Notes under the pieces: model-generated
Databases searched by the model: none
The model's input: the letters and a program-made list of their open reading frames with translations, nothing else
Told to the model about the DNA's origin: nothing
Part shown: piece after piece, positions 1 to 24,419 of the stretch
Numbering within the stretch: the first letter of the stretch is position 1
Layout of the letters: each line of letters opens with the position of its first letter
Assembly: GCA_023818895.1 (NCBI GenBank)
Contig: JAMWCX010000001.1
Span: 708,258 to 732,676 of the forward strand
Direction of reading: 5' to 3'
Source of the DNA: Candidatus Omnitrophota bacterium
GTDB lineage: Bacteria > Omnitrophota > Gorgyraeia > 2-01-FULL-45-10
Length of the DNA: 24,419 nt
Translations under genes and position numbers: made by a program

Positions 1-3000
1 TCCATAGCCGCCTGAACCAAGGCTTATGGGCTCTGTAACCGAGCCATAAGTGGCCAGCGGGTTATTGCCGCCCTGTCCGCCGTACGTGGCGCCGCCCCAG
101 TCATACTTGCCTGGGCCGTATGTGCCGGTAAATCCTTTATATGAGGCGTTAATTGCCGCGCTGTTAGAAATATAAACATCACCACCAACCGCAATAGTTC
201 GTCCTGCGCCATAGGGAGCAACGTTGTATTGATTGGCGCTTCTTGTCACGCTTATGATACTATTGGCGCCAACTAGGATGTTGCCGCCGACAATTAGGTC
301 ACCAAGCTGGTCCTGTTTGAAGGTATATACAGTTGTTGATGCAGCATGGTCCTCGATAATAAAGTCGCCTGTTATCTCCATGTCGCCGCGAACAGCTATG
401 GAACTGCCTTGAGTAATGAGGCCTGTGTAGTTGGCCTTTATGGTAAGCGACGCAATCTTGCCAAATCCAATGGTATTAAGCCAGGTATTATCGATTGTCG
501 AATTGTAGTTGCTATAAGAGGCGTCGAAAATGACGTTATCGAATTCGTCAGGCCTGGTGTGGGTAGGATCGCCGCCAACCCAGTTATTCTCATTCCACCA
601 GTAAAGGTCCGTGTAGCCAGGTTGTGCGTTCCAGTAGAACGTATAGCCGAATATCCAATCGACGTTATTTCCGGAATTAAGGCTTCCTGTGCCAGAGGCA
701 ATGATAGGCGTGGCGTTAATACACTCGGAATCTTTTACATCCAGATACTGGATCGCGCGGCTGCCCTGCGGATCGATGTACCATCTGTCGTCGATAGCCC
801 CATCCTCATCATCCTCGCTTGAACGAAGTTTCAGCCTGCCTTCAGGCGTGGCAGCAAAGCCCTGCAGCTTCATCTCACCTGTGATAACTTGCGTCGAACC
901 CTTTTCGAATGTGAGCGTAACGCCCCCTGTCATCTTCTCAATATCGTGGAACGTAGTCGAACCGTATATGGCCTGGTCAGTACCGTTAAAGTTCACAAGC
1001 CCCGTAGCATTGAGCGCCCCTAATCCTGACTGGTACCAATTACCAGCAAGATTAATCGTGTAACCTCCGTCGTTCAGAGTGCCTCCAAGATATATATCGC
1101 CACTCACAATAACATTATCCGACATAGTAACGGTCGCGCCTTCAGCGATCGTCCAGTCTCCGTCTATGGTGGTAGCCATCTTCCAACGGCCGCCTGAACC
1201 AGTGAATTCAAGGTTGTAGTAGTAGCTACCCGCCTTGAGGCCGTATGCGGTATAGTCACCCGTACCGTAGTATTCTACGGTTGAATTGGTCTGACAGTTG
1301 GGAGTAGTGACTGTTTCGGAACCCAGGAGCCGCAATCTTGCGCCGTCCTGGATTGTGAATGCGCCACCTGCCGATATGGTCTTTCCGGCGAGGTCGAGAC
1401 TGCCTTCAGCTACATCGACAGTTGAAGCGGTAACCATGGTGGTCTGAAGTATCAGTTTTGCGCCATCGCTCTTATAGATCTGAATCGGCGAGGATATAGT
1501 GCCGGCGTTCTGAGTGAATGTCTTATCGCTAGAGCCGCCCAGAACCAGGGTTAGGTTAGCTCCCCCAAAGGCATCAGTAGTCGACATCGAGAAGTTGCCG
1601 TTTATGGTGATAACAATGGCGCTAGAAGGATTGGAAACCACTCCGTCAGTACGAATAAAATCGCCGTTTACAGTAACGTCCGTAGTAAATGCAACTGTTC
1701 CATAGTCGCTCTTATTTATAATTATCGAGCCAATCGTGCCTCCGGAGTATGTTAAAATGGAGTTCTGGGTCGAACCGTTAAATATAACAGTTTTCCCGCT
1801 AAGATCGAAGGTGCCATTTTGGGTCAGGTTACCGTTAAGGCTAAGGGTATCTCCGGCATAGGTGATAGTGGCGCCGGTGTTATTGGTAAAATTTACAGAA
1901 CATCCGCCGCTGATAGCCGTCAGTATCCATCCTGAGCCGTTATGTGTAATGGTGCCGTTGTTGGTAAGGGCCGCGCCGTTCCAATCCCAGTTAGTGTAAT
2001 TATTTTTGATCGTCCATGTTCCCGAATTGACTGTAATTGTGCCGTTGTTGATAATAGGATTGCCGCAGATATTAGTAAGAGGATTATCTCCGAGATTTAT
2101 TGAGGTTCCTGCAGTTATGATGACAGAACTTGAGTCGTAGAGCTTGTTAATGATAACGGTTCCGCCGAGTTCTCCTTGAGCCGTGATTGTTGAACCTCTG
2201 ATCCCTTCAATCGTTATTGTTTTCCCGCTAAGATCGAAGGTGCCATTTTGGGTCAGGTTACCGTTAAGGCTAAGGGTATCTCCGGCATAGGTGATAGTGG
2301 CGCCGGTGTTATTGGTAAAATTTACAGAACATCCGCCGCTGATAGCCGTCAGTATCCATCCTGAGCCGTTATGTGTAATGGTGCCGTTGTTGGTAAGGGC
2401 CGCGCCGTTCCAATCCCAGTTAGTGTAATTATTTTTGATCGTCCATGTTCCCGAATTGACTGTAATTGTGCCGTTGTTGATAATAGGATTGCCGCAGATA
2501 TTAGTAAGAGGATTATCTCCGAGATTTATTGAGGTTCCTGCAGTTATGATGACAGAACTTGAGTCGTAGAGCTTGTTAATGATAACGGTTCCGCCTAAGA
2601 CACCATTGGCAGTAATGGTAGAGCTTCTTATTGGGGCATTGCTTCTACAGTCAAAAGTGACTTTATTTGAGGGACTATAAGTACCTCCTGAAAAAGTTAG
2701 GTTTACCTCAACAGTATACCCCGCTACAGGAGCTATAAACGTCCCGCCTGATTGAGTAAAGCTTCCGTTGATATCCAATGTGCCGATCTTGCCGTCAAAG
2801 GTTCCTCCTGCCTGGGTGTAATTACCTGTGCCTACTGTTAGGGTCCTGGCAGTTGAGTCATCGCCAAGGTATATAGTTCCGGTGTAGTTGGCATTGATGT
2901 TCATCCCCGAGATAGAAGTAGAGATATCTATGTTGCAGTTTTCGTTGGAGACATTTGGATTGTATGCTGCCACATTGCTTGAACCGGGAACCACCCCGCC

Positions 3001-6000
3001 GTACCAGTTGGAAGCCACGCTCCAGAGGTTGGAAGCAGCATCACCGATCCAGGTATAGCTGACAGGGGTAACAAAGAGCCATCTTGAGTTATTGCCGGAA
3101 TTGACGCAATTCGCGGTGCGTACATCAATGAGTGTGGCGTTGGTGTTGACTGAATCCTTCACATCAAGGTAGGACAATGTCGTTGTCCCTTGCGGATTGA
3201 TATACCACTTGGAGCCGTCAGATGTGCTGCGCAGGCTAAGAAGATTCCCGGAAACTCCCTGCAGGGTCAGGGTGCCGGTGATGGTCTGGGTTGAGAGCGC
3301 CTCAAATCTCAGGGTATCGCTAGCAGTTACTGTCTTGGTCAGGTTATTGAAGGTGGTGGAGCCTTTTATCGACTGATTGCCTCCGTTCAAGATAACTGTT
3401 TGTGTACCGCCGCCTGATGAGAATACTCCGTAATTGGTCCAGTCGCCGCTTAAGGTGACATTGCCGCCCGGAGCAAATGCCGCCTGGCTGGGTATGTGCA
3501 AACTGGCTATCGGATATGTTTCATTGCCGAGTATAAGAGCACCGCCCGCGACGGAATAGAGTATCTCAGCGGCGGACTGGGAACCTTTGGCGTCCGAAAG
3601 ATTAGCATTATCGATCGAGGTCAGGCCGCTTGAGGCCTCGTGCTTGACTGTGACCGTAGCGCCCGCGTAGATATTCAGGTTCTCGATATTGGAGGTCGTG
3701 GAGTCCGTGACTGTTATCGCGCTCCCCCTGTAAGCGGTGGCACTATTCAGGTAGACGAGGATCGCTATCTCGCTTCCTTCAGGCATAGAGATTCCGGAGA
3801 AGATGTAGAAGCCGTCTGAAGCAGTAGAGGCGGTTCCCGCGGCCGTTCCCATGACCACGAGGGAGACGATATCAGTTCCGTTTGCTATGGCGCTACCGCC
3901 GATAGCCTGGTAGGCATAGCCTGAGATGGTGATGCCGACTGAAGGCGGCGCATAGTTCTCATAGGCAAGGTGCGGATATGTGACGCCGGAGAAGCTATCC
4001 CAGGTATCGGTAAAGTCCCAGGGGTCAGGTTCGCCGGTATAAACAGCGCTTGTGGGGTCAAAAAACCAGCTTTCGTTGCCGCCTGGAAGCATGTCACTTA
4101 TGTAATAGCTGTTAGACACATATACAGGCCCGCCGTTACTGCCTTTGTAATGCTGCTCTATCCGCCCTATCAGCAGATTGCCGGTCGTCGTACCATTTGC
4201 CATGCCGGTCGCGTAGGAATTATGGATATATATATAATCGTTGGGGGCATTGGTGGTCATGCAAAGGCCTATCAGGCCGCCCGCGTCACTGGAGCCGACC
4301 ACATCACCTGTGGCAAAGCAATTTACCACGTCAACATGCGCAAGAGATAAGGCGCCGTCGGCTAATGCGAAGCCTATAAGGCCGCCCGCCGCATACGATG
4401 AGCTGCTTACCGAGCCTGTAGCATAGCAATCATTAAAATATATGGACGCCCCGCCGCCGCCCTCTGAACGCCCATAATCACAAGCGCTTCCCACCAGCCC
4501 GCCGACATTTTCACCTGTACCAACGACGCTGGCAGTGGAATAACACTGCGAGATGGTGATCGCACCCGAACCGCCCTGCTCCATGCCCCCTATAAGGCCG
4601 CCTACATTACTGGAGCCGCTTACACTGCCGCCATTGACATAGCAATTGGATATATTCACCTGGTATGAGTATCCTATGGCGATCTCAACTTTCCCTATTA
4701 GGGCGCCGACGTAGGAGCCTCCGGTAACTATGGGATTGACGAGCCCTACATTGGAGATAGTGACCGAATCATCGATTGGTGATACAACGCAGAATAGCCC
4801 AAAGCAGTCAGAATACTCGCCTCCATTGACCCTGAGATTGGATATGGTGTGATTTTGGCCGTTAAATGTGCCGGCAAAAGGCGATCCGGTGGTAGCGCCT
4901 ACCGGCGCCCAGTTATCCCCTATTCCCGCATAACCTGAAGTGGATGAGGAAAGATCCGCCTCGAGGTAATAATCTCCGTATAAATCGTAACGCATGTTAT
5001 TAAGGTCATACCAACTCGATATATAGTAAGTTTCGTTCTTAGCCCAGCCGGTATTTCCGCCAAAATCGCACTTTGGCTTGGCGTATATGGTATTTTCGCC
5101 TATATTGTGGGAATCCTGGATACCCACCCATTCGAGGGAATAACTACTTGAGTCCATATAGACATACCAGGCTGATCCCTCAATGCTTGATTTTAGCATT
5201 ATGGTATTGGCAAGGCCGATGGCGCCATGTATTTCGGTAATACCAAGGAAGGTATAGCTCTTCCCCGACTCGAAATATATGGTTTTGCCCGGAACTGTGC
5301 AGATAAAGTTATAAAAGGTGATGTTTCCGTAAAGATTTAGAGGGATTTCACCGGAAATGGTTACGCTTGCGCCTTCCAGCGTAAGCTGCTGACAACTTCT
5401 ATTGTACTCGATTGAGCCAAATTGGCCCTCATCCGGAGGCCCGCGGATCACTACAGTTGAACCGATTCCGAGTGATTCGCGAATATCAATAATTCCGTTT
5501 AACCGCTTCACATGGATATTCTGGGCTTCCACCCTCACTGGAGTGGTTAAAGCGCCGAACCTGTGGGCGGTCATTGTCAGATTCTGAGCCTGGATGATAG
5601 CTGAGTCGCGTGTTACAATGTCACCTCCTGTGATAAGAACCACTATTGGTGCTTCGATAGTAACCCCTATATCTATTACCTCTCTTGAGACAAGCGCAAT
5701 CACGTCAACTGCTTTAATACGAGCAGCGGGTTCAATAGTAATTTTGGCAGGTGCGAATTCCTGCGTCCTGTTGAGAAAAACATTTACATCCGGTGTGGCA
5801 GGGGCTTCGGACACCGCTCGGATAGGCTCTCCAGGCGCGACATCCTCGACGATTATCTCGCCGGCTTCAACGTCCCCTCCTATTGAGACATCGCCGTCAG
5901 CAACGATTTTGATCACACCATTTTTATTCTCCACGCGGCTGCCCTTAACCATTCCCTGCAAATTGATGCTATGTCTGAAAATTTCGTTTATGCTTGAGGC

Positions 6001-6783: not shown

Positions 6784-6809
6784 TGTATGAACCCTTTTCC
6801 GCAACACCC

Positions 6810-6852
6810 AAAACAAAAAACCCGCAAAGCTCATGTTGCCGAACTTGCGGGT
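6810..6852 (-). terminator. Rho-independent terminator-like hairpin plus U-tract, 26 nt upstream of the gene B ATG
   Basis: The minus-strand RNA reads ACCCGCAA-GUUCGGCAACAUGAGCU-UUGCGGGU-UUUUUGUUUU. It has a perfect 8-bp GC-rich stem (arms 6845..6852 and 6820..6827), a rather long 17-nt loop, and then U5GU4 (6819..6810). Confidence 0.6.
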
Positions 6853-6857
6853 GTATT

Positions 6858-6987: not shown

Positions 6988-7025
6988 TTAATTTAAATAA
7001 GAAAGATCTTTTTCCTTACGATTTG

Positions 7026-19200: not shown

Positions 19201-22200
19201 GAGACTACCCTTGATATAAATATCATGTGTGAGGGCGTTCAATGTCCCATTCGCCATGAAGAACGAGGCCGAGTCGGACTGGTTGTTATATTCGGTAGTT
19301 ATCCACCCTTCAGATTTTAATACGGTGGAAATGCGCATTTCGTCGAGTATTCCATTAAAATATGTTTGTGCCCCATGCACTCCGATATAAATTGGGGCGG
19401 AAGTTTGCCTTAAGGTGGGTACAGAAGTTGTCGAATAATAGCTAAAATTCATAGTTAGTTCTGCACCGTCCACAAAGACCCTCATCTGAAAATTGCTTAA
19501 AGAGCTGTCATGCTGCATTATTACATAATGCCAATCGGTTGCACTCACGCTATCTACAGAGGAACCGGAAAAAAAGGACCCTTCTGGTCTAAAGAAATAA
19601 CCGCCCATCTTGTCATTTTGCGGGCCAAATCCATAAAAGAAATCCCACGATCTAGTCTGTGTCTGAGTGGGATTACCTTTAGACATAATACAACCAGAAT
19701 GGTTAGTCGCCGGTTTTATCCATGCAGAGATAGTAAAGTTTGAAACTAACTGTAAGGTAGATGGATTTCCCAAATCGATATAACTATTGCTTCCGTTAAA
19801 ATTATCTGCTCCACCGATTTTACCTGAGTCAGTATAAATAACATTACCATAGGCGGTTCCGTTGTTATTATTTATAGTAGAATCAGTCGCATTTGTCTCT
19901 GCCATGTGCCAGACGCCGGCATATCCCTCACTCCAGACCGCCGTCTTCTGCTCGGTAGAGGCCGGATTCGTGGTGCCGTAATAGAGGTATATCCGCGTAT
20001 CCTGCGTGTCTGAGAGGTCGGCCTTGACCCAGGCAACGAGCGTCCTCGCGCCGGGGCCGCCGTCATTGTAATACTCAACTTCATACGGGATTATATCGCC
20101 GGAGGCGTTTCTGAACCTTATGGTGTAATTTGAGCCATTCTTGACGTTTGCCGCGGTAAGCTCGTCGTCGGTTACGCTAAATAGCACCGGGAAGCCAGAT
20201 ACGCCGCCTGTTCCTACCTTGGCATGATCTATGGTGATCGTCTTACGATAAGAATAACTCTCGGGCCAGCTGCCCGGCGCTCCTGCCGATATGCCGCTTT
20301 CCTTTTGTATGGCAAGGTCGCCATCTACATAAAGAGGATCGGCCAGCGTATAATTGCTTCCCGGAGCAAATATGACATTATTGAAGTGGTTTGAATTATC
20401 GTCAGCGTTGGAGGTGATCGTATTGGCAGAGGTGCCATTGAATATTACCGTGCTATTGTCGGCCGTAAACGCTCCCCCGGAATTAGTCCAGTCGCCGCCC
20501 AATGTAATGATAGTGTCGGCATCCGTACCTCTTGAAGCATCAAGGCCTCCGTATATAGTAAGGAAATGAGAAAGGGTAATGTCATAGCCGTCTGTAGCAA
20601 GCCAGTCTTCAGCTGATATAGTTAGATCTATGGCGTTAAGGTCGCTTGTGAGAATGACTGTATCAGGGCTCGAGCCGACGACTACATGGCCGAGATTGTT
20701 GCCATCTGAGTCGAGTTCAAGGTAACCATAGAGCCGCAACTGGCCGGATCCGGCGGAGTAAGTGCCTGGTGCAAGACTAACCGTCTTGTATAAACCATCA
20801 AATACGACATTGCCGTCATCCTGCGATAAGAGGCCTCCCGATATGTTGCAATTACCGCTTATCGTGAGGGCGCCTGAACCCAGAAGCACCTCACCCCCTG
20901 TCTGTGTATAGTCGCCGTAGATTGTAATCGCAGTATCATTGGTCCTGGCATCAACAATAAGAGAACCTCCACCGGTATTTGTTATCTCTGCGTCCCCCAG
21001 TTGATATATATAAGGCGTATTGTAGGTTAGCTGCCGTGTCTGGGACGATAGATTGCGGATGATGCCGTCATAAATAACAAATCCCGCCGCGGAATTAACC
21101 GTAATATCACGATCGGATAGGTCCATTATGACAAGGGAATTATTTATACTGCCGCCGCCGCCTGTTAGGTTCACGTCTCCTTTAATGACAAATGTGGAAT
21201 CGTCTATATTAAGGAACCCCGAACCGGAACGACCGAAGCCGCCCACACTTACTGTATTGCCGCCGGCTATAAAGGTGCCTCCTGTAAGATCAAACAAATT
21301 GTTGACTGTGAGCGGGCCAATCACATAACGGTCGCCGGATATAACGGAAAGATTATTGAACAAGCTTGAACCCGCATACATAGTGCCGCTGCCATTAAGA
21401 TTAACGGTCTGAGCTCCGCCGCCGTGAGTGAAGGTACCGTTATTGACCCAGTTGCCGGCGACGGTGATATTATTCGCGTCCGCATTGAGCGTCGCGCCGC
21501 TGTCGATGATCAGGTTGCCAGCCACGATCAAAGGATCGCCCAGCGTCGCAGAGGCAGGCTGGGAGATGATTCCTTGGCCGTATGACGGGCCGTTGCGCGG
21601 CGTGCCGTTCCTGCCGTTGCCTGAATAGTCGTTCGTATTGCCGTCAAAATGCCAGCCGGCGATGAGATCTGGGCGCGCCGTTCCATATGTGTGGTTGGAG
21701 TACATGGAAGCGATCTCTCCCGCCGAAAGCTCGCTTGCATATACGGCCATTTCGTCAATTAAACCATTGGTGTACCAGCTTGCGTCTGAACGCAATCCTA
21801 TCTTCAACATACTATCATTATTGGCTAACGGCCCTGTATACCAGTCTTTTATCCAATTACCGTTAATATAGGCGCTGTTCCAGCCATCCGTACCGTGTGT
21901 CGCGGTGAGAAAAACCCATTCGTTGGTAGGAATGACGGTGGTGAGATTGGTATAGGGTAGATATCCGTTGTAGCGCCCATTACCGAACCTTAAGTCGCCG
22001 GTTATCCCGCTGGAGTTTATACCCCACCATACGCCTCCATAGTAAGGAGGTGATTCTGCCCAACTATACACGCAGGTGGCCGACCCATACGACCTAAGAT
22101 AGACCCATAAACTTATACTGAAACCTGTCCCGCCATAATTATCTGGGTCTATAATAATAGAATCAATATACTGGTTCACGCCGTTTAGATCGATCGCCTG

Positions 22201-24419
22201 ACCGTCAGGCGCCAATATCTCGAGGTTATTGAACGCTGCACCGCCAGATTTGATCGTATGGTTTGCGGCTCCGACGAAGATTACGATCGAGCTGCCGGCA
22301 ATAAACCCAGCGGGGCCTGCGTTATTCGTCCAGTTGCCTGAGACATTCATGATCTGGTAGCCTGCGGTGAGGACGCCTGATACAATCGTTATGTCGTGGA
22401 TATTGGCAGTGGCCGTCAAAGTCGGGTCATTCGGGCGATCAAAGATAAAGACATTTGATGTGGCGATTGGCACTAATCCGGTCGACCAGTTGGAGCCGGT
22501 TGAAGCATCCCATTCTGTTGAGGTATTGCCAGTCCAGATGTAGTTTTCCGCATCGCCAGTATAGTTCTCCCAAGACAGGTGCGGATAGGTAGTCTTATAA
22601 GTATCCCAGACAGGCGTAAAGAAGTCCCACTGGTTAGCAGTGCCTACGGCATAGACACCATGAGCAGGGGAATAAAAGGCGCTTTTGTTAGCTTCATTAT
22701 AGGTTATGCTCCCGCCGTTACCTATCGGCTGGGCGGCTGCTTCTGTCCACCAGCCGCAGTTAGTTACATCCCCCCCCTGCCTGTATCCGATAAAACCACC
22801 TAAGTAACTGCCTGTGGCAGTTACTGTCCCGGTAGAGTAGCAGTTGTTAACGCTGACTCCAGAATTGGGGGCAAGATTTCCTATAAAGCCGCCTATATAA
22901 CTTTCACCACTGACAGGGCCTGAGGCATAGCTATTATTTACTATAACTGCTCCATAGCCAATTAGGCCGCCAACATGTAAATCACCTTTTACTTGCGCAG
23001 TGGAATAACAATTGCTAAATGTTATAAAATGGCCGCAACCGGCTAGACCACCTATAAAGGAATTGTCTGCGTTTGACTGCGCGTCAATAGTTCCGGTGAC
23101 ATAGCAGTTTTCAACAAAAGCTCCCCATGTATCATCGTCATTAGGTGCGCCGCCGATTAGCCCTCCTACGCCTACTATCTGTGTTTGGCCCGTCGCTATT
23201 ATGTGTATATCTATAAGGCCTACATCACGAATAATGGCAGGGTTATTTATCGCCCCAAACAAACCAACAGCATGTGCATTGCGGTTGATATAGAGATGAG
23301 AAATAGTGTGATTATTGCCATCAAAGGTGCCGGTAAAACAGTTGGTAGGTTCCCAGGTCATATCACCACCGACCGGCTCAAAGCCCGCGCCCGAGTTCCA
23401 GTTTGCGGTGTCCGAGGCGTCGATGTTGTTCTGGACTGTGTAGGTGCCGGAGAGGTTATATTTCATGAGCTGAAGGTCAAGGACGTTGTAAATCCAGTTG
23501 GAGTAGGAGTCGGTGATGCGCGCGATACCGCTTTCGCCGTAATCGTAATAGTTGTATCCTACAAGACCGCCGGCAGCACTTAAGCCATTAAGACTGGCAC
23601 CGCTAAAGAAAGTAGCAGTGGAGTTCTGGATTGTGCTAGAGTTATATCCCACCAGTCCGCCGACACGCTCACTTCCTGAAACCGTCCCACCATCTTCTAT
23701 TGTGACACTGCAGGAGCTCTGGATTGTGCCATAGTTTTGGTTTTCTCCCACCAACCCGCCGACAAAATAATTTCCTGAAACCTCTCCGCCACTTTCTATG
23801 GTTACCGAGCAGAAGTCCTGGATGGTGCCAGAATAGTTATGCCCCACCAACCCGCCGACATAATTATTTCCTGAAACCTCTCCGCCACTTTCTATGGTTA
23901 CCGAGCAGAAGTCCTGGATGGTGCCATAGTCGTTATGCCCCACCAGCCCGCCGACATACCAGTATCCTGAAACCTCTCCGCCACTTTCTATTGTGACGCT
24001 GCAGGAGTTTTGGATTATGCCGTTGTTAGACCCCACCAACCCGCCGACATAATCATCACTTCCTGAAACCGTCCCATATATATCTACATTTGAGGAGTAA
24101 ATTGTGGCGGAGGAGTAATTACGCCCCACCAACCCGCCGACCCAATTATTTCCTGAAACCGTCCCATATATATCTACACTTGAGGAGTCAATTGTGCCGG
24201 CGTTCTCCCCCACCAACCCGCCGACATACTCATTTCCTGAAACCGTCCCATATACATCTATACTTGAGGAGTCAATTGTGCCGCTGCTATACCCCACCAA
24301 CCCGCCGACATAATCACTTCCTGAAACCTCTTCGTCACCATTTATCGTTACGGAACAACCAGATACGGTACCGCTGACTAAAAATCCTATTAACCCACCA
24401 ACAGAGTTCTGTCCAGTTA
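7282..24419 (-). CDS. Giant mosaic beta-helical surface/adhesin-like fibre protein, 5'-partial (at least 5,711 codons in window)
   Basis: ORF track 7282..24300 (5,672 aa, TAA stop at 7284-7282). The listed first residue is a TTG codon inside a GGLVG repeat. The same frame stays open to 24419 (...TGQNSVGGLIGFLVSGTVSGCSVTINGDEEVSGSDYVGGLVGYSSG...), so the true start is outside the window. Recognisable protein repeats and domains occur along the whole length. Confidence 0.92.
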   Translation of the reverse strand, partial: TGQNSVGGLIGFLVSGTVSGCSVTINGDEEVSGSDYVGGLVGYSSGTIDSSSIDVYGTVSGNEYVGGLVGENAGTIDSSSVDIYGTVSGNNWVGGLVGRNYSSATIYSSNVDIYGTVSGSDDYVGGLVGSNNGIIQNSCSVTIESGGEVSGYWYVGGLVGHNDYGTIQDFCSVTIESGGEVSGNNYVGGLVGHNYSGTIQDFCSVTIESGGEVSGNYFVGGLVGENQNYGTIQSSCSVTIEDGGTVSGSERVGGLVGYNSSTIQNSTATFFSGASLNGLSAAGGLVGYNYYDYGESGIARITDSYSNWIYNVLDLQLMKYNLSGTYTVQNNIDASDTANWNSGAGFEPVGGDMTWEPTNCFTGTFDGNNHTISHLYINRNAHAVGLFGAINNPAIIRDVGLIDIHIIATGQTQIVGVGGLIGGAPNDDDTWGAFVENCYVTGTIDAQSNADNSFIGGLAGCGHFITFSNCYSTAQVKGDLHVGGLIGYGAVIVNNSYASGPVSGESYIGGFIGNLAPNSGVSVNNCYSTGTVTATGSYLGGFIGYRQGGDVTNCGWWTEAAAQPIGNGGSITYNEANKSAFYSPAHGVYAVGTANQWDFFTPVWDTYKTTYPHLSWENYTGDAENYIWTGNTSTEWDASTGSNWSTGLVPIATSNVFIFDRPNDPTLTATANIHDITIVSGVLTAGYQIMNVSGNWTNNAGPAGFIAGSSIVIFVGAANHTIKSGGAAFNNLEILAPDGQAIDLNGVNQYIDSIIIDPDNYGGTGFSISLWVYLRSYGSATCVYSWAESPPYYGGVWWGINSSGITGDLRFGNGRYNGYLPYTNLTTVIPTNEWVFLTATHGTDGWNSAYINGNWIKDWYTGPLANNDSMLKIGLRSDASWYTNGLIDEMAVYASELSAGEIASMYSNHTYGTARPDLIAGWHFDGNTNDYSGNGRNGTPRNGPSYGQGIISQPASATLGDPLIVAGNLIIDSGATLNADANNITVAGNWVNNGTFTHGGGAQTVNLNGSGTMYAGSSLFNNLSVISGDRYVIGPLTVNNLFDLTGGTFIAGGNTVSVGGFGRSGSGFLNIDDSTFVIKGDVNLTGGGGSINNSLVIMDLSDRDITVNSAAGFVIYDGIIRNLSSQTRQLTYNTPYIYQLGDAEITNTGGGSLIVDARTNDTAITIYGDYTQTGGEVLLGSGALTISGNCNISGGLLSQDDGNVVFDGLYKTVSLAPGTYSAGSGQLRLYGYLELDSDGNNLGHVVVGSSPDTVILTSDLNAIDLTISAEDWLATDGYDITLSHFLTIYGGLDASRGTDADTIITLGGDWTNSGGAFTADNSTVIFNGTSANTITSNADDNSNHFNNVIFAPGSNYTLADPLYVDGDLAIQKESGISAGAPGSWPESYSYRKTITIDHAKVGTGGVSGFPVLFSVTDDELTAANVKNGSNYTIRFRNASGDIIPYEVEYYNDGGPGARTLVAWVKADLSDTQDTRIYLYYGTTNPASTEQKTAVWSEGYAGVWHMAETNATDSTINNNNGTAYGNVIYTDSGKIGGADNFNGSNSYIDLGNPSTLQLVSNFTISAWIKPATNHSGCIMSKGNPTQTQTRSWDFFYGFGPQNDKMGGYFFRPEGSFFSGSSVDSVSATDWHYVIMQHDSSLSNFQMRVFVDGAELTMNFSYYSTTSVPTLRQTSAPIYIGVHGAQTYFNGILDEMRISTVLKSEGWITTEYNNQSDSASFFMANGTLNALTHDIYIKGSLTVNGTLNTSGMVTFNGSEAGKTIYAPTTEFNNVTVNGAGGVWTMESDLDVNGTLAIDEGALHAGMNNITIAGDFVNTDIFTSAATVTFDGTGTQHVSTGDASIYDVVIDKDSGSVVLQEPIDVGNDLAITSGALDVNANGISAGNDIINHGLITNYSGDIVLNAMNIYPGTIANNALAGSISVNAAACYLDQNASLASNDGAIDINAPVSGDYELALDAGSAGISLQSVDVDTLSLSGGNLHLFGPVLTDKGLNFTGVGSIEINDDISITANDGGSSPKDITFGPANVIIGSHYLTLDGANITLYQVGDGASDPTGLDIFGSNNILLYRNITVDGPVNFYGPVELGNSITINTSGANGSILFSESLDAFGNQSLILEAGSGVVTFMGRIGNIGGLTTEFYISDLGTVWKYFNGEWISLGVPTDGLVYMNYIYGIAAANGVVYAWGWSNYLGNYCVYRNDGNGWQNLYYDYNYGEAWRGAADSDGTFYVANGYLIHRFDPLGGWQYYYAPPVMNFDIYCIAANNGIVGAGGYPSDGSNALKIYDPYYGYWLDYPPDAGFYYTYYGGAGGSSIYAVGYDYGGYEAIKRYDIGYGMWESIAAPFNVSGNIAVGPGGEGYAPANGVIYKYEPFSYQWNYLDLGSYPVYTYSVGFSERDVPPALLGSLTVTSAGAVNFNAPVNVSGESVVAGEVNFNDGASWTLNDSLTVNGDLNLKSGSNLAAGINNIYVAGDWINNGGSFVAGAGTVEFNGPGTSRILGSTEFNVLTCDTPGKTLEFDANGIQTIAELAITGAPGSLVNIRSLVNGVGANISVSSSSIAYVSVKDSHNTNASYDIPASNSQNLGNNEHWAFGDITYTGTGVWTNAANWSSGVVPGQYDNAAIGYASGAFGACTVDTAVAVNNLTINASSSTSSLITGANTITLTGNYTNLGGTLTSTGGTFVFAGTSPQTIDTGGTGTAKDFYNVTIKDGAIVSPVTNHLYMNGNLIIGEGTSGVLDTNSKWVRVIGTTLINDGAILYLDASSAASRFGFSKDVTNNGSFIIESDANQALLLGSGSPRSQFKGNPITYNGKTVYFGGIFDYVPDVVLAGTGDTISITSGSIYFNNVSLGVGGAVSGLTLGGSSAYAYIAGDFTNTASGIFNCGTGTVTFNADAAGKTVVSAGDPFYNVVFNSPTGSGAWTIDDAMTVGNNFTLTNGSVTQAAGLTILGGYAQSGGIFTIPDPKDPESLPFSAAANFVISGGVFNRFSGSGTSIDPYMVRDIYDLQAIKCYLASNLVFKQYCDFSAASASLWNGGTGFIPLGDATTKFTGTYDGNNKIISGLSMSKNDIANLGLFGYVTDSVLKNINLTGMTVTDTSYSISVNVGGLAGSIESSTIDNVHIAGDISGTANPANVGGLVGYAYRTNIYDSSADVSVAATNPFPGGANAGGLIGYSYAYWSVNSTISGCYTTGSVIASGSGYGNRVNAGGIVGCQYANVFSTALILDSYSTANVSGTCPGYEINVGGIAGFLLADNGGHSNITNAYATGVITGSATYPNIGGLVGRRYGYLGGSSEIVTQSYWDIETSGVFISDGGTPLTTSQMRGESNYTGWDFHTTPIWDAFASTYPHLHWEGYVPEGAVTVSGTAGSAIGANKQVALSLNGAGFVTVNTTDANGSFSFSNVVLASGDRLLIFVNDASYKANMAAVTNGSAAISGLTLQNGRFAIGDTDAAISKALTNADLAAAYYNNSNVHYSVTSGNASFLNSIDLWLPSSMTYAPGGNVSASQDLINEGTFTQNGNVAVTRDFLLNSGSFTCSAPTTYTFSVGRSFTITPTNQGSFNRYETDGSGYKLIRDVYDLQAMKCYLSSNFKLENDIDATPTTNWNSGAGFEPVGTSSTSFMGNFNGQDYTIDGLYMHWNISNYTVGLFGKADYATLSNIHLTNVDITSDLGTAAALLANSGNCSIQNCSVSGGSITGSTTQASWAGGLVGYHGWNNNMQKCFASVSVSGYFAGGLAGTADHSSISNCYATGDVTSTYIAGGLVGRHYNNASITNCYATGTVSGSSGATGGLVGYNGVYFPGYPNILGSFSGHSYWNITHNPHLDPQEGGVGNTVDPSNVHGLNEVKMHGESNYTGWDFHTTPIWDAFASTYPHLHWEGYVPEGAVTVSGTFNEQGAGIPIAFALNGGGFVVVNTTSGGAFSFENVVLNASDKLLVFADSSSYKANLVGIAQNSNAISNITLENNQFSIGDADANIGGYFSNVDLAAAYTPDSDVHYSVSGTGPSYTISFTDGIGLLIPSGMTYAPAGDIYASGDWTNDGAFIAGDSWVIFDSGSAQAIYSGGYDESKSFSNIEIQGQGTNVTVCEHIRLTGRLLIGAAGMDNPATLTLSDGVQVWIDGGSLDLSFNSNLSLASVSCIIEDGLYGYNYYGGDTGVNYSDLLKKFDSTDDVCVKMGVLPQQDAEAYCGSLTIAHIPPYPAGEYTISGGRLYVDGGLFIESSGALTVLDSSSQIHIGGDWTNNGGTFTHGDGTVYLTGGSEIFTNSDPFGYLTIEGAYTLQDPLYVDYDLDFSAGTLTTNGNVITLDGGTFNLGQINDDAYLEGSGSIQSNYNHFIGLYLQNGSSYTMADEMFVDSELNIDGSSSLDQAGSALYAYYINIASGTWRNSGGSITIGEGGVHNDGMIDFTGSGYTIRSDVDGEQRDWYGSGSFSIDGADVKDQVRPLGETPAYILVTNGTDSGNNINWVFGLTGTEISGTFYTAIDASTALGEGHLVVIAINGTPSLFQGYTDPNGHFSIMVSDVKNGDVVGVYSASTIGDIPPEAATITKALETTSMGLNLYANTVAVRSENPLKEVINNWDLQAIELNQAVDTSKLNYITNIFADIEVEGGYLYYVEAGKYAPQASVYVNSGMTISSYAELDVAHDNAYIEVVDAFANYGTLYNSLGDVVVIADTIDTVGITNDYGISLTSATTTAVNGALGASTYVGLYGTGSVTVNGDITAGTYIEVGDDDSGIYPLSFDASGYKLDAGTYIELYTWGPVEFGNHTNAATALGYICIDTTGVPAGDYLTAYGSLRAGTLVEIYCDGDVMVTGNIDVNAGGIIIGNSSYCVGSLDVGGYLDAAGDIDIYCAGAVGIDSYVSSDGYVYIYTDTGVTVGEYISSADTLDIEASGKVEIADSVTGALRVYIGTSDDVTVTGRLESTGSFVSVQALGGATGLVTLSDVMAYDAVIIEGYGLNITGTVTSLISYVWLDGYQRPVKVDSAISSAASTTVLGSDVSLSGIDAGTSLKINGSLITLNGNTSSSSGSIDITSTGDLIINGLLDIDYASSDIDIGGSVTIGSNATVNAGPSYWTIDGDWTCYGEFNGEGSTVEFIGDDNSNSTILGSSEFNVLKCDTAGRGITNKTLEFDHTDGQLQDITTIVLKGRKGDPINVHSTLSADQAEIRVYTVCEVEYVAVQDMNNNVDQAGIRDIIAHHSTDLGNNYGWSFDDITWTGEVSGEWYDPRNWDPWIVPSRYDTVFIDHIADPAQFHPFFNITGTIRLQALTIDDEIFGGEKISLDLRGNALELDEWLLNSGIIKNTIAGEAINITTGLGARTGDLTTGTIENLTDRINLTSMIGNIEVDSIISGDNVTLDARNGSILDANGISSTITADNLTMTSAGHIGQATNPINVAIADTIDLTAGGAGEIALTSDKLNIGKVITATGTVTFNGDVTLKGDSTKGETFELNSKVLDINGSITINNKASLNVNAADNKIFISKGWKMVNGGAFDHNNNEVIFDTINNATIEGETTFWKFTCDMTNTVGQKTIYFEANKLQTIDSVLTLKGTQENKLVLRSTQPGTQWKIDPNVTTWNGLIANVDVQDSNNTSGVDINPENSLGGWVKSGKKWINPSNNTSWFTKPQDDKDEEEWVDPIYIVNPWLDIFSNLSWTSSIAFATDFVDREDLYKKRYAKGKYRTVVIVMEGKVAVADYSEKGVDYENAKMVTDGQKIEVKGEVK
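7285..7581 (-). other. C-terminal 99-aa tail of gene A with distinct charged composition
   Basis: TKPQDDKDEEEWVDPIYIVNPWLDIFSNLSWTSSIAFATDFVDREDLYKKRYAKGKYRTVVIVMEGKVAVADYSEKGVDYENAKMVTDGQKIEVKGEVK. It is K/E/D-rich, unlike the G/T/N/S-rich fibre. I recognise no family. Confidence 0.4.
7582..7911 (-). other. Junction domain copy A3 (last domain before the C-terminal tail)
   Basis: ETTFWKFTCDMTNTVGQKTIYFEANKLQTIDSVLTLKGTQENKLVLRSTQPGTQWKIDPNVTTWNGLIANVDVQDSNNTSGVDINPENSLGGWVKSGKKWINPSNNTSWF. Confidence 0.55.
8815..9120 (-). other. Junction domain copy A2
   Basis: SSEFNVLKCDTAGRGITNKTLEFDHTDGQLQDITTIVLKGRKGDPINVHSTLSADQAEIRVYTVCEVEYVAVQDMNNNVDQAGIRDIIAHHSTDLGNNYGWSF. It is followed by DDITWTGEVSGEWYDPRNWDPWIVPSRYDTVFID. 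Confidence 0.55.
9590..10440 (-). other. Asp/Gly/Tyr/Val-rich short-turn beta-helix segment of gene A (approximate bounds)
   Basis: ...GDITAGTYIEVGDDDSGIYPLSFDASGYKLDAGTYIELYTWG...GNIDVNAGGIIIGNSSYCVGSLDVGGYLDAAGDIDIYCAGAVGIDSYVSSDGYVYIYTDTGVTVGEYISSADTLDIEASGKVEIADSVTGALRVYIGTSDDVTVTGRLESTG... The turns are irregular, 10-20 aa long, with alternating hydrophobic residues and Gly/Asp. Confidence 0.4.
10831..11031 (-). other. Small beta-sandwich (CarboxypepD_reg/Ig-like), third copy in gene A
   Basis: GTEISGTFYTAIDASTALGEGHLVVIAINGTPSLFQGYTDPNGHFSIMVSDVKNGDVVGVYSASTIG. It has the same x-SG-x...T-D-x-N-G-x-F-S pattern as the other copies. Confidence 0.4.
12580..12798 (-). other. Small beta-sandwich after GLUG module A3
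   Basis: VPEGAVTVSGTFNEQGAGIPIAFALNGGGFVVVNTTSGGAFSFENVVLNASDKLLVFADSSSYKANLVGI. Confidence 0.4.
12767..12899 (-). repeat. 133-bp conserved core, copy a (pairs with 14339..14471; 126/133 identical)
   Basis: The two copies align at an offset of exactly 1,572 bp (524 codons). There are seven substitutions, six of them synonymous. Both copies encode GESNYTGWDFHTTPIWDAFASTYPHLHWEGYVPEGAVTVSGT. Confidence 0.9.
12799..13728 (-). other. GLUG-motif beta-helix module A3, closed by YPHLHWEGY
   Basis: YKLIRDVYDLQAMKCYLSSNFKLENDIDATPTTNWNSGAGFEPVGTSSTSFMGNFNGQDYTIDGLYMHWNISNYTVGLFGKADYATLSNIHLTNVDI...WAGGLVGYHG...FAGGLAGTA...IAGGLVGRH...ATGGLVGYN...NYTGWDFHTTPIWDAFASTYPHLHWEGY. Confidence 0.7.
14152..14370 (-). 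other. Small beta-sandwich after GLUG module A2
   Basis: VPEGAVTVSGTAGSAIGANKQVALSLNGAGFVTVNTTDANGSFSFSNVVLASGDRLLIFVNDASYKANMAAVT. Confidence 0.4.
14339..14471 (-). repeat. 133-bp conserved core, copy b (pairs with 12767..12899)
   Basis: See copy a. The only amino-acid difference is R versus H, just before GESNY. Confidence 0.9.
14371..15444 (-). other. GLUG-motif beta-helix module A2, closed by YPHLHWEGY
   Basis: YMVRDIYDLQAIKCYLASNLVFKQYCDFSAASASLWNGGTGFIPLGDATTKFTGTYDGNNKIISGLSMSKNDIANLGLFGYVTDSVLKNINLTGMTV...VGGLAGSI...VGGLVGYA...AGGLIGYS...AGGIVGCQ...VGGIAGFL...IGGLVGRR...NYTGWDFHTTPIWDAFASTYPHLHWEGY. Confidence 0.7.
16655..16929 (-). other. Junction domain copy A1
   Basis: STEFNVLTCDTPGKTLEFDANGIQTIAELAITGAPGSLVNIRSLVNGVGANISVSSSSIAYVSVKDSHNTNASYDIPASNSQNLGNNEHWAF. 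It is followed by GDITYTGTGVWTNAANWSSGVVPGQYDNAAIGY. Confidence 0.55.
17248..18012 (-). other. Six-repeat Kelch-like Tyr/Gly/Trp-rich beta-propeller candidate embedded in gene A
   Basis: There are six ~40-aa repeats. Each contains h-x-[YF]-x(5,6)-W-x-x-h: VWKYFNGEWISL, CVYRNDGNGWQNL, LIHRFDPLGGWQYY, LKIYDPYYGYWLDY, IKRYDIGYGMWESI and VIYKYEPFSYQWNYL. Most are preceded by a blade-start strand with a Gly doublet or Gly-rich turn (VVYAWGW, FYVANGY, IVGAGGY, IYAVGYDYGGY, IAVGPGGEGY). The composition switches abruptly from the G/T/N/S fibre to Y/G/W. Confidence 0.55.
19258..19914 (-). other. LamG / concanavalin-A-like lectin domain (Laminin_G_3 type), second half of the DUF2341-LamG cassette
   Basis: GVWHMAETNATDSTINNNNGTAYGNVIYTDSGKIGGADNFNGSNSYIDLGNPSTLQLVSNFTISAWIKPATNHSGCIMSKG...WHYVIMQHDSSLSNFQMRVFVDGAEL...PIYIGVHGAQTYFNGILDEMRISTVLKSEGWITTEYNNQSDSASFF. 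It shows the classic W-x-h-x-E...D-S-x-x-N-x-N-G...F-x-G...h-S-A-W-h...F-x-G-x-h-D-E-h-R-h-S...W-h...Y-x-N-Q pattern. Confidence 0.75.
19915..20268 (-). other. DUF2341 domain
   Basis: WPESYSYRKTITIDHAKVGTGGVSGFPVLFSVTDDELTAANVKNGSNYTIRFRNASGDIIPYEVEYYNDGGPGARTLVAWVKADLSDTQDTRIYLYYGTTNPASTEQKTAVW. It matches the remembered DUF2341 (PF10102) pattern: W-x-YRK-x-ITI...FPVL...D-IRF...L-x-YE-h-E...A-x-VWVK...h-Y-h-YYG. Confidence 0.7.
21697..22191 (-). other. LamG / concanavalin-A-like domain lacking its usual N-terminal head strand
   Basis: DLNGVNQYIDSIIIDPDNYGGTGFSISLWVYLRSYGSATCVYSWAESPPYYGGVWWGINSSGITGDLRFGNGRYNGYLPYTNLTTVIPTNEWVFLTATHGTDGWNSAYINGNWIKDWYTGPLANNDSMLKIGLRSDASWYTNGLIDEMAVYASELSAGEIASMYS. 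Confidence 0.7.
22561..23502 (-). other. GLUG-motif beta-helix module A1, closed by YPHLSWENY
   Basis: SNWIYNVLDLQLMKYNLSGTYTVQNNIDASDTANWNSGAGFEPVGGDMTWEPTNCFTGTFDGNNHTISHLYINRNAHAVGLFGAINNPAIIRDVGLIDIHI...VGGLIGGA...IGGLAGCG...VGGLIGYG...IGGFIGNL...LGGFIGYR...NQWDFFTPVWDTYKTTYPHLSWENY. Confidence 0.7.
23503..24419 (-). repeat. Coding tandem array of ~10 short GGL[VI]G (GLUG-type) turns, unit length 84-101 bp, continuing off the right edge
   Basis: The anchor ccaccaacccgccgac (minus strand V-G-G-L-V-G) recurs at 23649, 23748, 23844, 23940, 24033, 24126, 24210, 24294 and 24395, plus a diverged copy near 23560. The periods are 99, 96, 96, 93, 93, 84, 84 and 101 bp. Units 23748..23843 and 23844..23939 differ at 5 of 96 positions. 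Protein units look like FCSVTIESGGEVSGNNYVGGLVGHNYSGTIQD. Confidence 0.85.

What the first reader, a model, noticed from the sequence alone, without database searches (positions are those of the whole stretch)
1..24419. Two tandem, paralogous giant fibre genes fill the whole window, and neither is complete
Gene A is an uninterrupted 17.1-kb reading frame whose N-terminus is still missing. The M at 24300 in the track is a TTG inside a repeat, and the frame is open to 24419. Gene B adds 6.8 kb with its C-terminus missing. Together they show more than 7,970 codons of secreted beta-helical fibre built from one shared toolbox: GLUG modules closed by YPHLxWExY, small beta-sandwiches, a ~100-aa junction domain, and W-x-G...W...NW...VP restart motifs. 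By eye I found no catalytic signature such as HExxH or a lipase/protease triad context. That points to a contact/adhesion apparatus rather than an enzyme. Proteins above 5,000 aa are rare in prokaryotes and mostly uncharacterised. The mix of TPS, GLUG, LamG, DUF2341 and a Kelch-like propeller in one locus is not an architecture I recognise as described. Similar giant genes have been reported mainly from uncultivated lineages, but that link is speculation here.
Basis: partly seen in the sequence, partly recalled or inferred. Interest (0 to 1): 0.75.

Follow-up and report, generated by a model that had tools for sequence, protein, structure and literature searches.

The report
Riboswitch-gated giant secreted fibre genes

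Summary
On the minus strand, one frame is open for 5,711 codons (24417..7285). A second gene starts at ATG 6783 and runs off the window after 2,261 codons.

Gene B is a bona fide TpsA exoprotein, with a signal peptide and a TPS domain. Gene A has no N-terminus in the window. Its modules and its ~55-aa C-terminal cap are those of Omnitrophota proteins that start with a TPS domain. GenBank lists A as a 5,671-aa hypothetical protein (MCM8790746.1) on a 732-kb Omnitrophota contig. Its annotated GTG start lies in the middle of a repeat.

The main addition is regulatory. A sigma70-like promoter, a c-di-GMP-I riboswitch (57.5 bits) and an intrinsic terminator precede gene B. The same aptamer lies 60-443 nt upstream of 29 of 69 related TPS genes. 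The terminator's 5' strand co-varies with the aptamer, which is the layout of an OFF switch.

TpsB partners lie next to the gene in 30 of 78 related loci. The TPS+GLUG architecture is common, so the genes are large new members of a known kind. They differ from the published multi-transmembrane Omnitrophota giant proteins. An adhesion role is plausible but unproven. The contig could not be extended.

The parts
7282..24419 (-). Gene A: open frame of 5,711 codons, running off the window at its 5' end. Identical to GenBank MCM8790746.1 (5,671 aa, annotated start GTG at 24297).
22738..24417 (-). GLUG repeat array 1 of A (aa 1-560), 15 GG[LF][VIA]G units. The DNA-level 84-96-nt repeats lie at 23641-24381.
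22561..22587 (-). YPHLSWENY cap motif that closes GLUG module 1. Further copies are at A3341, A3865 and B936.
21709..22149 (-). Laminin_G_3 (concanavalin-like lectin) domain 1, A aa 757-903.
19936..20121 (-). DUF2341, a marginal match, A aa 1433-1494.
19309..19797 (-). Laminin_G_3 domain 2, A aa 1541-1703. Also a weak sub-threshold NCBIfam TafC match.
17248..18030 (-). Y/G/W-rich, Kelch-like candidate beta-propeller, A aa ~2130-2390. An orphan apart from weak Kelch similarity.
16543..17055 (-). Junction module copy, A aa 2455-2625 (GDW..TFxNL..KTLxFE..LRST..W.I.P.G..YVDVxDSxN..GNN..W; then W..NW..P).
12793..15450 (-). Two tandem GLUG + YPHLHWEGY + following modules (A aa 2990-3510 and 3554-4035), 50-65% identical to each other in part. 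The Peptidase_M26_N-like stretch lies here.
7543..9255 (-). Two further junction modules, A aa 5055-5236 and 5470-5625. The second was modelled with pLDDT 80-97 as an all-beta domain.
7285..7449 (-). Conserved ~55-aa C-terminal cap (YKKRYAKGKYRTVVIVMEGKVAVADYSEKG...GQKIEVKGEVK). It is found at the extreme C-terminus of TPS-domain proteins of Omnitrophota.
7026..7053 (-). Sigma70-like promoter TTGAAA-16-TATAAT with extended -10 TG (11 of 12 matches). It gives gene B its own transcription unit.
6895..6975 (-). c-di-GMP-I riboswitch aptamer (RF01051, 57.5 bits against GA 35). It has A at the position aligned to consensus G11 and lacks the tetraloop receptor.
6835..6843 (-). UUCGGCAAC, perfectly complementary to the aptamer 3' tail GUUGCCGAA (6903..6895). 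This is the antiterminator pairing (-15.3 kcal/mol).
6809..6852 (-). Intrinsic terminator: a 13-bp hairpin ACCCGCAAGUUCG/UGAGCUUUGCGGGU followed by U6GU4.
1..6783 (-). Gene B: ATG 6783, 2,261 codons, C-terminus off the window.
5869..6783 (-). Signal peptide (hydrophobic core aa 17-40) and TPS secretion domain (aa 54-305) of B.
3949..5037 (-). GLUG-type beta-helix module of B (aa 583-945) ending in YPHLAYENY. Similar in sequence to PDB 3n6z.
1790..2595 (-). Perfect in-frame 429-nt tandem duplication (143 codons, 1.9 copies) inside B.

Best explanation
The window carries two neighbouring genes for very large exoproteins of the two-partner-secretion (type Vb, TpsA) kind, from a Candidatus Omnitrophota bacterium.

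Shown:
- Gene B has a signal peptide and a TPS domain.
- Both proteins are G/S/T/N-rich and free of TM helices.
- Both are built from a shared, shuffled set of modules: GLUG beta-helix arrays capped by YPHLxWExY, and a ~170-aa junction module absent from Pfam and PDB. A also carries lectin-like LamG inserts and a possible Kelch-like propeller.
- Gene A ends in the ~55-aa C-terminal cap that closes TPS-domain proteins of this phylum.
- Gene B has its own promoter, a c-di-GMP-I-class aptamer and an intrinsic terminator.

Inferred:
- Each protein is threaded through an outer-membrane TpsB channel encoded outside the window. It folds outside the cell into a long beta-helical fibre that displays carbohydrate- or protein-binding modules, for attachment to other cells or surfaces.
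- The charged C-terminal cap may act as a periplasmic stopper or anchor.
- The riboswitch is an OFF switch. When the aptamer is empty, its 3' tail pairs with the terminator's 5' half and transcription reads through. When the cyclic dinucleotide is bound, the terminator forms. The fibre would therefore be made at low second-messenger level.
For: TpsA identity of B:
- Pfam TPS 82.8 bits and TIGR01901 61.2 bits.
- PDB sequence matches to the TPS domains of EtpA, HMW1 and HxuA, E 4e-24 to 9e-13.

Lineage: the nearest relatives are Omnitrophota 'filamentous hemagglutinin N-terminal domain' proteins. A itself is GenBank MCM8790746.1 from an Omnitrophota MAG.

TpsB partner: ORFs with ShlB+POTRA_2 domains lie next to the TPS gene in 30 of 78 related loci.

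A belongs to the same family:
- Its tiles hit internal modules of TPS-bearing ORFs.
- Its last ~51 aa align at ~50% identity to the exact C-termini of ten related TPS-locus ORFs.
- P0005 and P0012 carry both an N-terminal TPS domain and this cap.

Riboswitch:
- Rfam 57.5 bits against GA 35.
- 29 of 69 related TPS genes with enough upstream DNA have the aptamer 60-443 nt upstream on the same strand. Rfam's own threshold confirms it in 14 related loci.
- 95.5% of cells are paired and 15 of 19 pairs show compensatory changes.

OFF design:
- A terminator follows the aptamer in 26 of 30 leaders.
- The terminator's 5' strand is complementary to the aptamer's UAUGG receptor strand or its P2 3' strand, depending on the locus. 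In the window it is complementary to the 3' tail.
- In 18 of 27 leaders, the fold of the transcript cut before the terminator's 3' strand pairs that 5' strand with the aptamer. The window does so through a 9-bp helix.

Not a toxin or membrane giant: no HExxH, no VENN, no TM segments.
Against: - No TPS domain, signal peptide or TpsB is visible for A in the window. GenBank starts A at an internal GTG in mid-repeat, so A may be interrupted upstream.
- Adhesion is inferred from domain types only.
- Most of both proteins has no Pfam or PDB match.
- The propeller model failed. The junction-module model has no significant structural neighbour, best E 1.5.
- The OFF polarity rests on thermodynamic folding and comparative complementarity, not on experiment.
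- In the window the antiterminator covers only the upper part of the terminator stem, leaving 8 GC-rich base pairs free.
- The window aptamer has A at the position I map to Vc2 G20. The ligand could therefore be 3',3'-cGAMP or both dinucleotides (PMC6140456).
Confidence: 0.72

Rival explanations
1. In the source assembly, gene A is a broken or mis-assembled gene. A frameshift or stop just upstream of the window, real or a repeat-driven assembly or sequencing error, separates it from its TPS-bearing 5' part. As annotated, the 5,671-aa product would not be exported.
For: The GenBank protein starts with M at a GTG in the second GLUG unit of the window although the frame is open to the window edge. 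The contig is 732 kb, so the gene is not cut by a contig end. The 5' end lies in 84-96-nt DNA repeats. No TPS protein of up to ~1,200 aa from that contig appeared among B's homologues.
Against: 17.1 kb of uninterrupted frame argues for selection and a low error rate. The C-terminal cap and modules are intact. The search tool returned no protein longer than ~1,225 aa, so a long upstream partner could have been missed.
Confidence: 0.3
2. The fibres are primarily degradative enzymes or toxin-delivery devices (polysaccharide lyase/glycosidase-type beta-helices, or CdiA-like contact-dependent toxins) used on prey or host cells, rather than passive adhesins.
For: Right-handed beta-helices are the fold of pectate lyases and tailspike depolymerases, and these dominate the weak Foldseek list. 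Laminin_G_3 belongs to the 'lectin/glucanase' superfamily. Cell-wall degradation has been proposed for Omnitrophota giant proteins (10.1101/2023.11.21.568195). TpsA families include cytolysins and CdiA.
Against: All structural matches are non-significant (E >= 1.5). There is no catalytic family hit in Pfam or NCBIfam. There is no VENN or (Q/E)LYN pre-toxin motif. A's C-terminus is a conserved cap shared across species, not a polymorphic toxin. No immunity-size ORF follows A; the gap holds only the promoter and riboswitch.
Confidence: 0.15
3. The riboswitch is an ON switch, or it senses 3',3'-cGAMP rather than c-di-GMP. The fibre would then be induced, not repressed, by the signal, as for c-di-GMP-induced adhesins such as CdrA or the Bc2-controlled Cap.
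For: Bc2, a c-di-GMP-I riboswitch with a terminator, is an ON switch for an adhesin (PMC4933901). The window aptamer and 6 clear relatives (L009, L018, L038, L043, L045, L046; L025 is ambiguous) have A at the position aligned to consensus G11. A G-to-A change at Vc2 G20 gives cGAMP or bispecific binding (PMC6140456). In the full-length MFE the terminator forms in most leaders regardless.
Against: The terminator is a self-contained hairpin 38-125 nt downstream, and its 5' strand, not its 3' strand, is complementary to the aptamer. This is the three-element OFF layout, and the complementarity co-varies with aptamer type. Most relatives keep G at that position. A CHASE2-GGDEF gene lies between two riboswitch-controlled genes in L017.
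Confidence: 0.3

Closest known systems
TpsA exoproteins of two-partner secretion (type Vb): FHA/FhaB, HMW1, EtpA, HxuA, CdrA
   Same: N-terminal signal peptide plus TPS domain (B), with direct sequence matches to the EtpA, HMW1 and HxuA TPS structures. A long beta-helical passenger rich in G/S/T/N. A ShlB/FhaC-type TpsB partner in related loci. Large size.
   Different: The canonical NPNL/NPNGI motifs are replaced (..VNLP.., ..LVNESGIY..). The passenger is built from GLUG arrays and a family-specific junction module absent from Pfam and PDB. LamG and Kelch-like inserts are present. A conserved ~55-aa C-terminal cap closes the protein. Control is by riboswitch rather than protein regulators. 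A is at least 5,711 aa.
GLUG-motif TPS proteins annotated in Chlorobi, Achromobacter, Methylosinus and others (P0047, P0052, P0054), and the GLUG/M26_N region of IgA1-protease-like proteins (PDB 3n6z)
   Same: The same Pfam pair, PF05860+PF07581. B 583-843 aligns to 3n6z (E 7e-9).
   Different: Only 28-33% identity in the TPS region. Those proteins are ~900-1,200 aa in the database entries seen. No riboswitch association was examined or is known for them.
c-di-GMP-I (GEMM-I) riboswitches: Vc2, Cd1 (an OFF switch before flagellar genes), Bc2 (an ON switch before the collagen adhesin Cap)
   Same: The aptamer reaches the Rfam gathering score. It has a P2 GAAA tetraloop, conserved junction nucleotides and a transcription-terminator expression platform. 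The regulated gene encodes a surface structure.
   Different: The regulated gene is a type Vb giant exoprotein in a PVC-group candidate phylum. The window copy lacks the tetraloop receptor and has A at the G20-equivalent position. The predicted polarity is OFF, opposite to Bc2.
Published giant proteins of Omnitrophota (archaeovorins, dockerin-type, multi-enzyme giants)
   Same: The same phylum. Very long, repeat-rich, poorly annotated ORFs. A proposed role in host or prey contact. LamG (PF13385) repeats occur in some.
   Different: Those are >10-147 kaa and almost all carry TM helices, SecA-DEAD-like or many enzyme domains, with type II secretion nearby. None of the three papers checked mentions TPS, GLUG, hemagglutinin or riboswitches. 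The proteins here have no TM helices and use a TPS export signal.

Membership tests
TpsA (two-partner secretion exoprotein) - gene B | N-terminal Sec signal peptide followed by a TPS domain | tested here: met
   Hydrophobic core at aa 17-40. PF05860 82.8 bits against 33.5, TIGR01901 61.2 against 29.1. PDB TPS domains matched at E down to 4e-24.
TpsA - gene B | Cognate TpsB (ShlB/FhaC Omp85 with POTRA) encoded nearby | tested here: inconclusive
   None in the window, which the two genes fill. Adjacent in 30 of 78 related loci.
TpsA - gene B | Beta-helical passenger that is actually secreted | not testable with these tools
   Only composition, GLUG repeats and the 3n6z similarity point to a beta-helix.
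TpsA - gene A | N-terminal TPS domain | tested here: not met
   Absent from the 5,711 codons in the window. The 5' end is off the window and GenBank starts the CDS mid-repeat. The contig could not be extended.
Omnitrophota TpsA subfamily - gene A | Shared junction modules and the conserved C-terminal cap seen in proteins that begin with TPS | tested here: met
   (P0005 and P0012 have both TPS and cap).
c-di-GMP-I riboswitch (RF01051) | Covariance-model score above the curated threshold, with the P2/P3 architecture | tested here: met
   57.5 bits against 35, E 5e-9. The family-wide alignment is 95.5% paired, with 15 of 19 covarying pairs.
c-di-GMP-I riboswitch (RF01051) | Ligand-contact nucleotides (Vc2 G20, A47, C92) | tested here: inconclusive
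   A47- and C92-equivalent nucleotides are present. The G20-equivalent (consensus position 11, my mapping) is A in the window, which is the cGAMP/bispecific signature (PMC6140456).
c-di-GMP-I riboswitch (RF01051) | Ligand binding and ligand-dependent gene control | not testable with these tools
   Only the terminator/antiterminator layout could be analysed.
CdiA / contact-dependent inhibition toxins | Pre-toxin VENN (or related) motif, a polymorphic C-terminal toxin, and a downstream immunity gene | tested here: not met
   No VENN or (Q/E)LYN. The C-terminus is conserved across species. No ORF in the A-B gap other than a 17-codon one.
Kelch beta-propeller (A ~2130-2390) | Pfam Kelch match or a confident propeller model | tested here: inconclusive
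   No Pfam hit. Weak phmmer hits to Kelch proteins. AlphaFold model pLDDT 37.6.

The most novel reading that the evidence does not exclude
Omnitrophota, which are ultra-small bacteria thought to depend on or prey on other cells, use a phylum-wide family of giant TpsA fibres as their cell-capture apparatus. The family has its own junction module and C-terminal cap. The bacteria would gate the fibres with cyclic-dinucleotide OFF riboswitches, some possibly tuned to cGAMP, so that fibres are made in the low-signal, host-seeking state and shut off after contact. This would be the first riboswitch-controlled type V secretion substrate and a direct, testable handle on how these uncultivated bacteria regulate attachment.
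Probability: 0.3. Interest if true: 0.7.

Novelty: new member of a known kind. Interest (0 to 1): 0.45.

Why it matters
How Omnitrophota attach to hosts or prey is unknown. The published giant proteins of the phylum are too large and too obscure to test.

The genes here belong to a well-understood export system (TpsA/TpsB). They are common in the phylum and carry recognisable binding modules. In about 40% of the loci examined they sit behind a small, structured RNA whose ligand and polarity can be measured in vitro.

That ties a cyclic-dinucleotide signal to a specific surface structure in a phylum almost entirely without cultured representatives. It also yields two uncharacterised conserved protein modules for structural work. 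Taken only as 'two giant fibre genes', the finding is a large but ordinary member of a known class.

Tried and rejected
Contig extension failed:
- An exact 60-mer from the window end is absent from genome contigs, metagenome contigs and viral contigs.
- The GenBank protein P0082 is not on record in the look-up of encoding contigs.
- The ends of A and B and the neighbouring genes therefore remain unseen.

Sequence searches:
- PDB sequence searches with A (5,000 aa plus the last 1,151 aa) gave no hits.
- A homologue search with the propeller-like region gave nothing at E <= 1e-3.
- A homologue search with A's C-terminal 482 aa gave a single hit.
- A profile of the junction module against PDB gave only spurious 25-residue hits to designed beta-trefoils, and nothing in Pfam.

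Structure:
- Single-sequence AlphaFold of A 2091-2430 gave pLDDT 37.6 and is unusable, so no fold search was run on it.
- Foldseek of the C-terminal model found nothing significant.

Considered and rejected:
- A metalloprotease, because the Peptidase_M26_N hit is to the non-catalytic N-terminal GLUG region and there is no HExxH.
- A CdiA-type toxin (no VENN, conserved C-terminus).
- Membership of the multi-TM Omnitrophota giant class (no TM helices).
- Plus-strand ORFs of 158-243 aa inside the genes, treated as antisense artefacts of the long frames.

Literature searches for c-di-GMP riboswitch with two-partner secretion, and for GLUG with two-partner secretion, found nothing. c-di-GMP with riboswitch and filamentous hemagglutinin found only two papers, neither of which was opened.
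Full report
OBSERVATION

On the minus strand a single frame is open from 24417 to 7285 (5,711 codons, stop at 7282-7284). A second frame is open from 6906 to the window start. In the second frame the ATG at 6783 begins MGNILNSKKLSTRCEKRILAGVCVFSLLILNIFYANIVHGLP..., giving 2,261 codons to the window edge. The first start codon in gene A's frame is TTG at 24300. It lies inside an array of 84-96-nt DNA repeats that encode 28-33-aa GGLVG (GLUG) units.

The YPHLxWExY motif is present at A611, A3341, A3865 and, as YPHLAYENY, at B936. There is no HExxH in either protein.

WHAT THE PROTEINS ARE

Gene B is a TpsA-type exoprotein:
- It scores 82.8 bits against Pfam TPS (cutoff 33.5) and 61.2 bits against TIGR01901.
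- Residues 40-300 match the solved TPS domains of EtpA, HMW1 and HxuA, with E from 4e-24 to 9e-13.
- Residues 583-843 match a GLUG-type domain, PDB 3n6z.

Gene A's domains in the window are:
- strong Glug matches;
- two Laminin_G_3 domains;
- a marginal DUF2341;
- a Peptidase_M26_N match to the non-catalytic part of that family.

Most of both proteins has no Pfam, NCBIfam or PDB match. Both are G/S/T/N-rich. Neither has a TM-like segment apart from B's signal peptide.

A and B share modules at 28-37% identity, but not in the same order. 'Paralogous' is thus true at module level only.

It found no homologues in the word-indexed database. In the exhaustive representative search it found, besides itself, ten weak hits (E 8e-7 to 7e-4). 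Eight of the nine I scanned are Kelch propellers. A single-sequence AlphaFold model was unusable, with pLDDT 37.6. The propeller is plausible but not shown.

SOURCE AND RELATIVES

The representative search returned gene A itself, as P0082. This is GenBank MCM8790746.1, 'MAG: hypothetical protein NC938_03490 [Candidatus Omnitrophica bacterium]', 5,671 aa, on a contig of 732,676 bp. It equals the window's frame from the GTG at 24297 onward.

That annotated start is in the second GLUG unit and has no signal peptide. On a 732-kb contig this is not an edge effect. Either a stop or frameshift lies just upstream, or the start call is wrong. I could not see the upstream DNA. An exact 60-mer from the window end is absent from all three searchable collections, and the protein is not on record for context look-up.

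B's N-terminus is closest to Omnitrophota 'filamentous hemagglutinin N-terminal domain' proteins, at up to 66% identity. A profile scan of GTDB genomes returned 78 loci, nearly all Omnitrophota or mislabelled PVC MAGs. In these loci:
- TPS ORFs of 1,000 to more than 3,900 aa are usual.
- One relative, spanning L010 and L003 on JBARQV010000027.1, is a complete gene of about 4,734 codons by my arithmetic.
- Tandem pairs of such genes occur (L032, L003/L010, L017, L068/L069).
- ORFs with ShlB+POTRA_2 (TpsB) domains lie next to the TPS gene in 30 loci.

Several results place gene A in the same family:
- A's tiles hit internal modules of these TPS-bearing ORFs.
- The junction module occurs 87 times in 47 ORFs of 44 loci.
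- A's last ~51 residues (..KGKYRTVVIVMEGKVAVADYSEKG..GQKIEVKGEVK) align at about 50% identity to the exact C-termini of ten related TPS-locus ORFs.
- P0005 (1,196 aa) and P0012 (869 aa) carry both an N-terminal TPS domain and this cap.

I therefore read A as a member of the same TpsA subfamily whose 5' part is out of view or interrupted.

A 16-sequence AlphaFold model of A's last 332 residues is confident (pLDDT 80-97) over the junction module and is all-beta. It has no significant PDB neighbour (best E 1.5). The weak matches are almost all right-handed beta-helix proteins.

THE GAP BETWEEN THE GENES

It contains three elements:
- a near-consensus sigma70-type promoter, TTGAAA-16-TGnTATAAT, at 7053..7026;
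- a c-di-GMP-I riboswitch aptamer at 6975..6895, scoring 57.5 bits against a gathering score of 35, E 5e-9;
- a 13-bp hairpin followed by U6GU4 at 6852..6809, ahead of the ATG at 6783.

The association with TPS genes is conserved. A covariance model built from six copies found 30 aptamers in 1 Mb of window plus loci, all on the gene's strand. Of 69 related TPS genes with at least 500 nt of upstream DNA, 29 have an aptamer 60-443 nt upstream of the estimated start. Rfam's own threshold confirms 14 related loci. One of these, L060, scores best as the GGC variant RF03167. The 30 sequences are 95.5% paired in the consensus structure, against 28-42% for slid controls, and 15 of 19 pairs show compensatory changes. 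This alignment was fitted to the model, so the counts lean towards the structure. In L017 a CHASE2-GGDEF diguanylate cyclase gene lies between two riboswitch-controlled TPS genes.

HOW THE SWITCH LIKELY WORKS (INFERENCE)

In 26 of 30 leaders a strong terminator follows the aptamer by 38-125 nt. The terminator's 5' strand is complementary to a 3' element of the aptamer, and the element differs between loci:
- In about eleven loci the terminator reads CCCAUAGC..GCUAUGGG and matches the aptamer's GCUAUGG, the UAUGG half of the GAAA-tetraloop receptor.
- In about six loci (L007, L023, L035, L045, L046, L060) it reads GCCCAUUCU and matches the P2 3' strand GGAUGGGG.
- The window's aptamer lacks the receptor. 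There the complementarity is between the aptamer's 3' tail GUUGCCGAA and UUCGGCAAC in the terminator's upper 5' half and loop (9 bp, -15.3 kcal/mol).

When each transcript is folded up to the point just before the terminator's 3' strand, the 5' strand pairs with the aptamer in 18 of 27 leaders. The window does the same through its 9-bp helix.

This is a three-element layout: an aptamer segment, its complement, and a copy of the segment followed by a U-run. It is the classical design of an OFF switch, in which bound ligand locks the aptamer and frees the terminator. I put about 65% on OFF. In the window the antiterminator leaves the lower 8 bp of the terminator free, and no experiment exists. 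The known c-di-GMP-I riboswitch before an adhesin gene, Bc2/Cap, is an ON switch (PMC4933901).

The ligand is also not certain. The window, six clear relatives (L009, L018, L038, L043, L045, L046) and possibly L025 have A where the consensus has G at model position 11. By my own mapping this position corresponds to Vc2 G20. G20A and the natural A variants bind 3',3'-cGAMP or both dinucleotides (PMC6140456).

COMPARISON WITH WHAT IS KNOWN

TPS+GLUG proteins are widely annotated; eight of the 80 hits have both Pfam families. Giant TpsA proteins are known from the field literature. Cyclic-di-GMP control of adhesins is also well known, including the TpsA CdrA through protein regulators (my background knowledge) and Cap through a riboswitch (PMC4933901).

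I did not find any paper linking a c-di-GMP riboswitch to two-partner secretion or to Omnitrophota. The three Omnitrophota giant-protein papers do not mention TPS, GLUG, hemagglutinin or riboswitches. Their giants are of a different kind: more than 10-147 kaa, with many TM helices, SecA-like or multi-enzyme content.

CDI-type toxin delivery is unlikely. There is no VENN-type motif, the C-terminus is conserved across species, and no immunity ORF follows A. An enzymatic beta-helix cannot be excluded but has no positive support.

VERDICT

The genes are large, divergent members of a known class (type Vb exoproteins), from a phylum where this subfamily is common but undescribed.

The items of real interest are:
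- the conserved cyclic-dinucleotide riboswitch in front of these genes and its apparent OFF logic;
- the unannotated junction module;
- the C-terminal cap.

Unresolved points are the true 5' end of A, the 3' end of B, the copy number of the perfect 429-nt repeat in B, the ligand, and the switch polarity.

Noticed in passing
The same aptamer precedes 29 of 69 related TPS genes.
   Followed up: yes
window ~6965 (aptamer position aligned to Rfam consensus 11): The window aptamer has A where the consensus has G. By my mapping this is the Vc2 G20 equivalent, the signature of cGAMP-sensing or bispecific GEMM-Ib variants. L009, L018, L038, L043, L045 and L046 share it (L025 is ambiguous). The window copy also lacks the CCUAAG/UAUGG tetraloop receptor that the relatives have.
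   Followed up: partly
window 1790-2595: A perfect (100% identical) in-frame 429-nt tandem duplication, 1.9 copies, lies inside gene B. It is either a very recent duplication or a collapsed or expanded repeat in the assembly.
   Followed up: partly
window 24297 (GenBank start of MCM8790746.1): The public annotation starts gene A at a GTG in the middle of a GLUG repeat, although the frame is open to the window edge and the contig is 732 kb. This suggests a stop or frameshift just upstream, or a wrong start call.
   Followed up: partly
L017 16805-18499: A CHASE2-GGDEF diguanylate cyclase gene sits between two riboswitch-controlled TPS genes (aptamers at 9818 and 18863). The signal's synthase is thus encoded next to its RNA sensors.
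   Followed up: partly
L009 ~2270-2600, L023 ~9790-10000, L024, L029, L060 (downstream of the aptamer): In five related loci a small ORF (..TFLTREQIDFLDKLGKDALFYKG.KLSR..IL.ELV..) lies between the riboswitch terminator and the TPS gene. There is no counterpart in the window and its function is unknown.
   Followed up: no
window 7285-7449 (A aa 5657-5711) and C-termini of L004, L013, L018, L022, L025, L027, L032, L034, L045 ORFs: A charged ~55-aa C-terminal cap domain (KGKYRTVVIVxEGKVxVxPYDExG...GQK...GEVK) is conserved at the very end of Omnitrophota TpsA proteins. It has no Pfam or PDB match. It may be a periplasmic stopper or anchor.
   Followed up: partly
L060 9545-9638: One related leader scores best as the c-di-GMP-I-GGC variant (RF03167, 62.2 bits) rather than RF01051, so aptamer subtypes differ within this gene family.
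   Followed up: no
L002 375-450; L017 166-519; L018 11129-11490: Unrelated RNA genes in the fetched loci: a group II intron domain (L002) and bacterial RNase P RNA (L017, L018), plus tRNAs in L001 and L018.
   Followed up: no
window 12767-12899 vs 14339-14471: A 133-nt direct repeat at 95% identity, 1,572 nt apart. It marks the most recent of the internal module duplications in gene A (A 3241-3510 against 3752-4035, 50-65% aa identity).
   Followed up: partly
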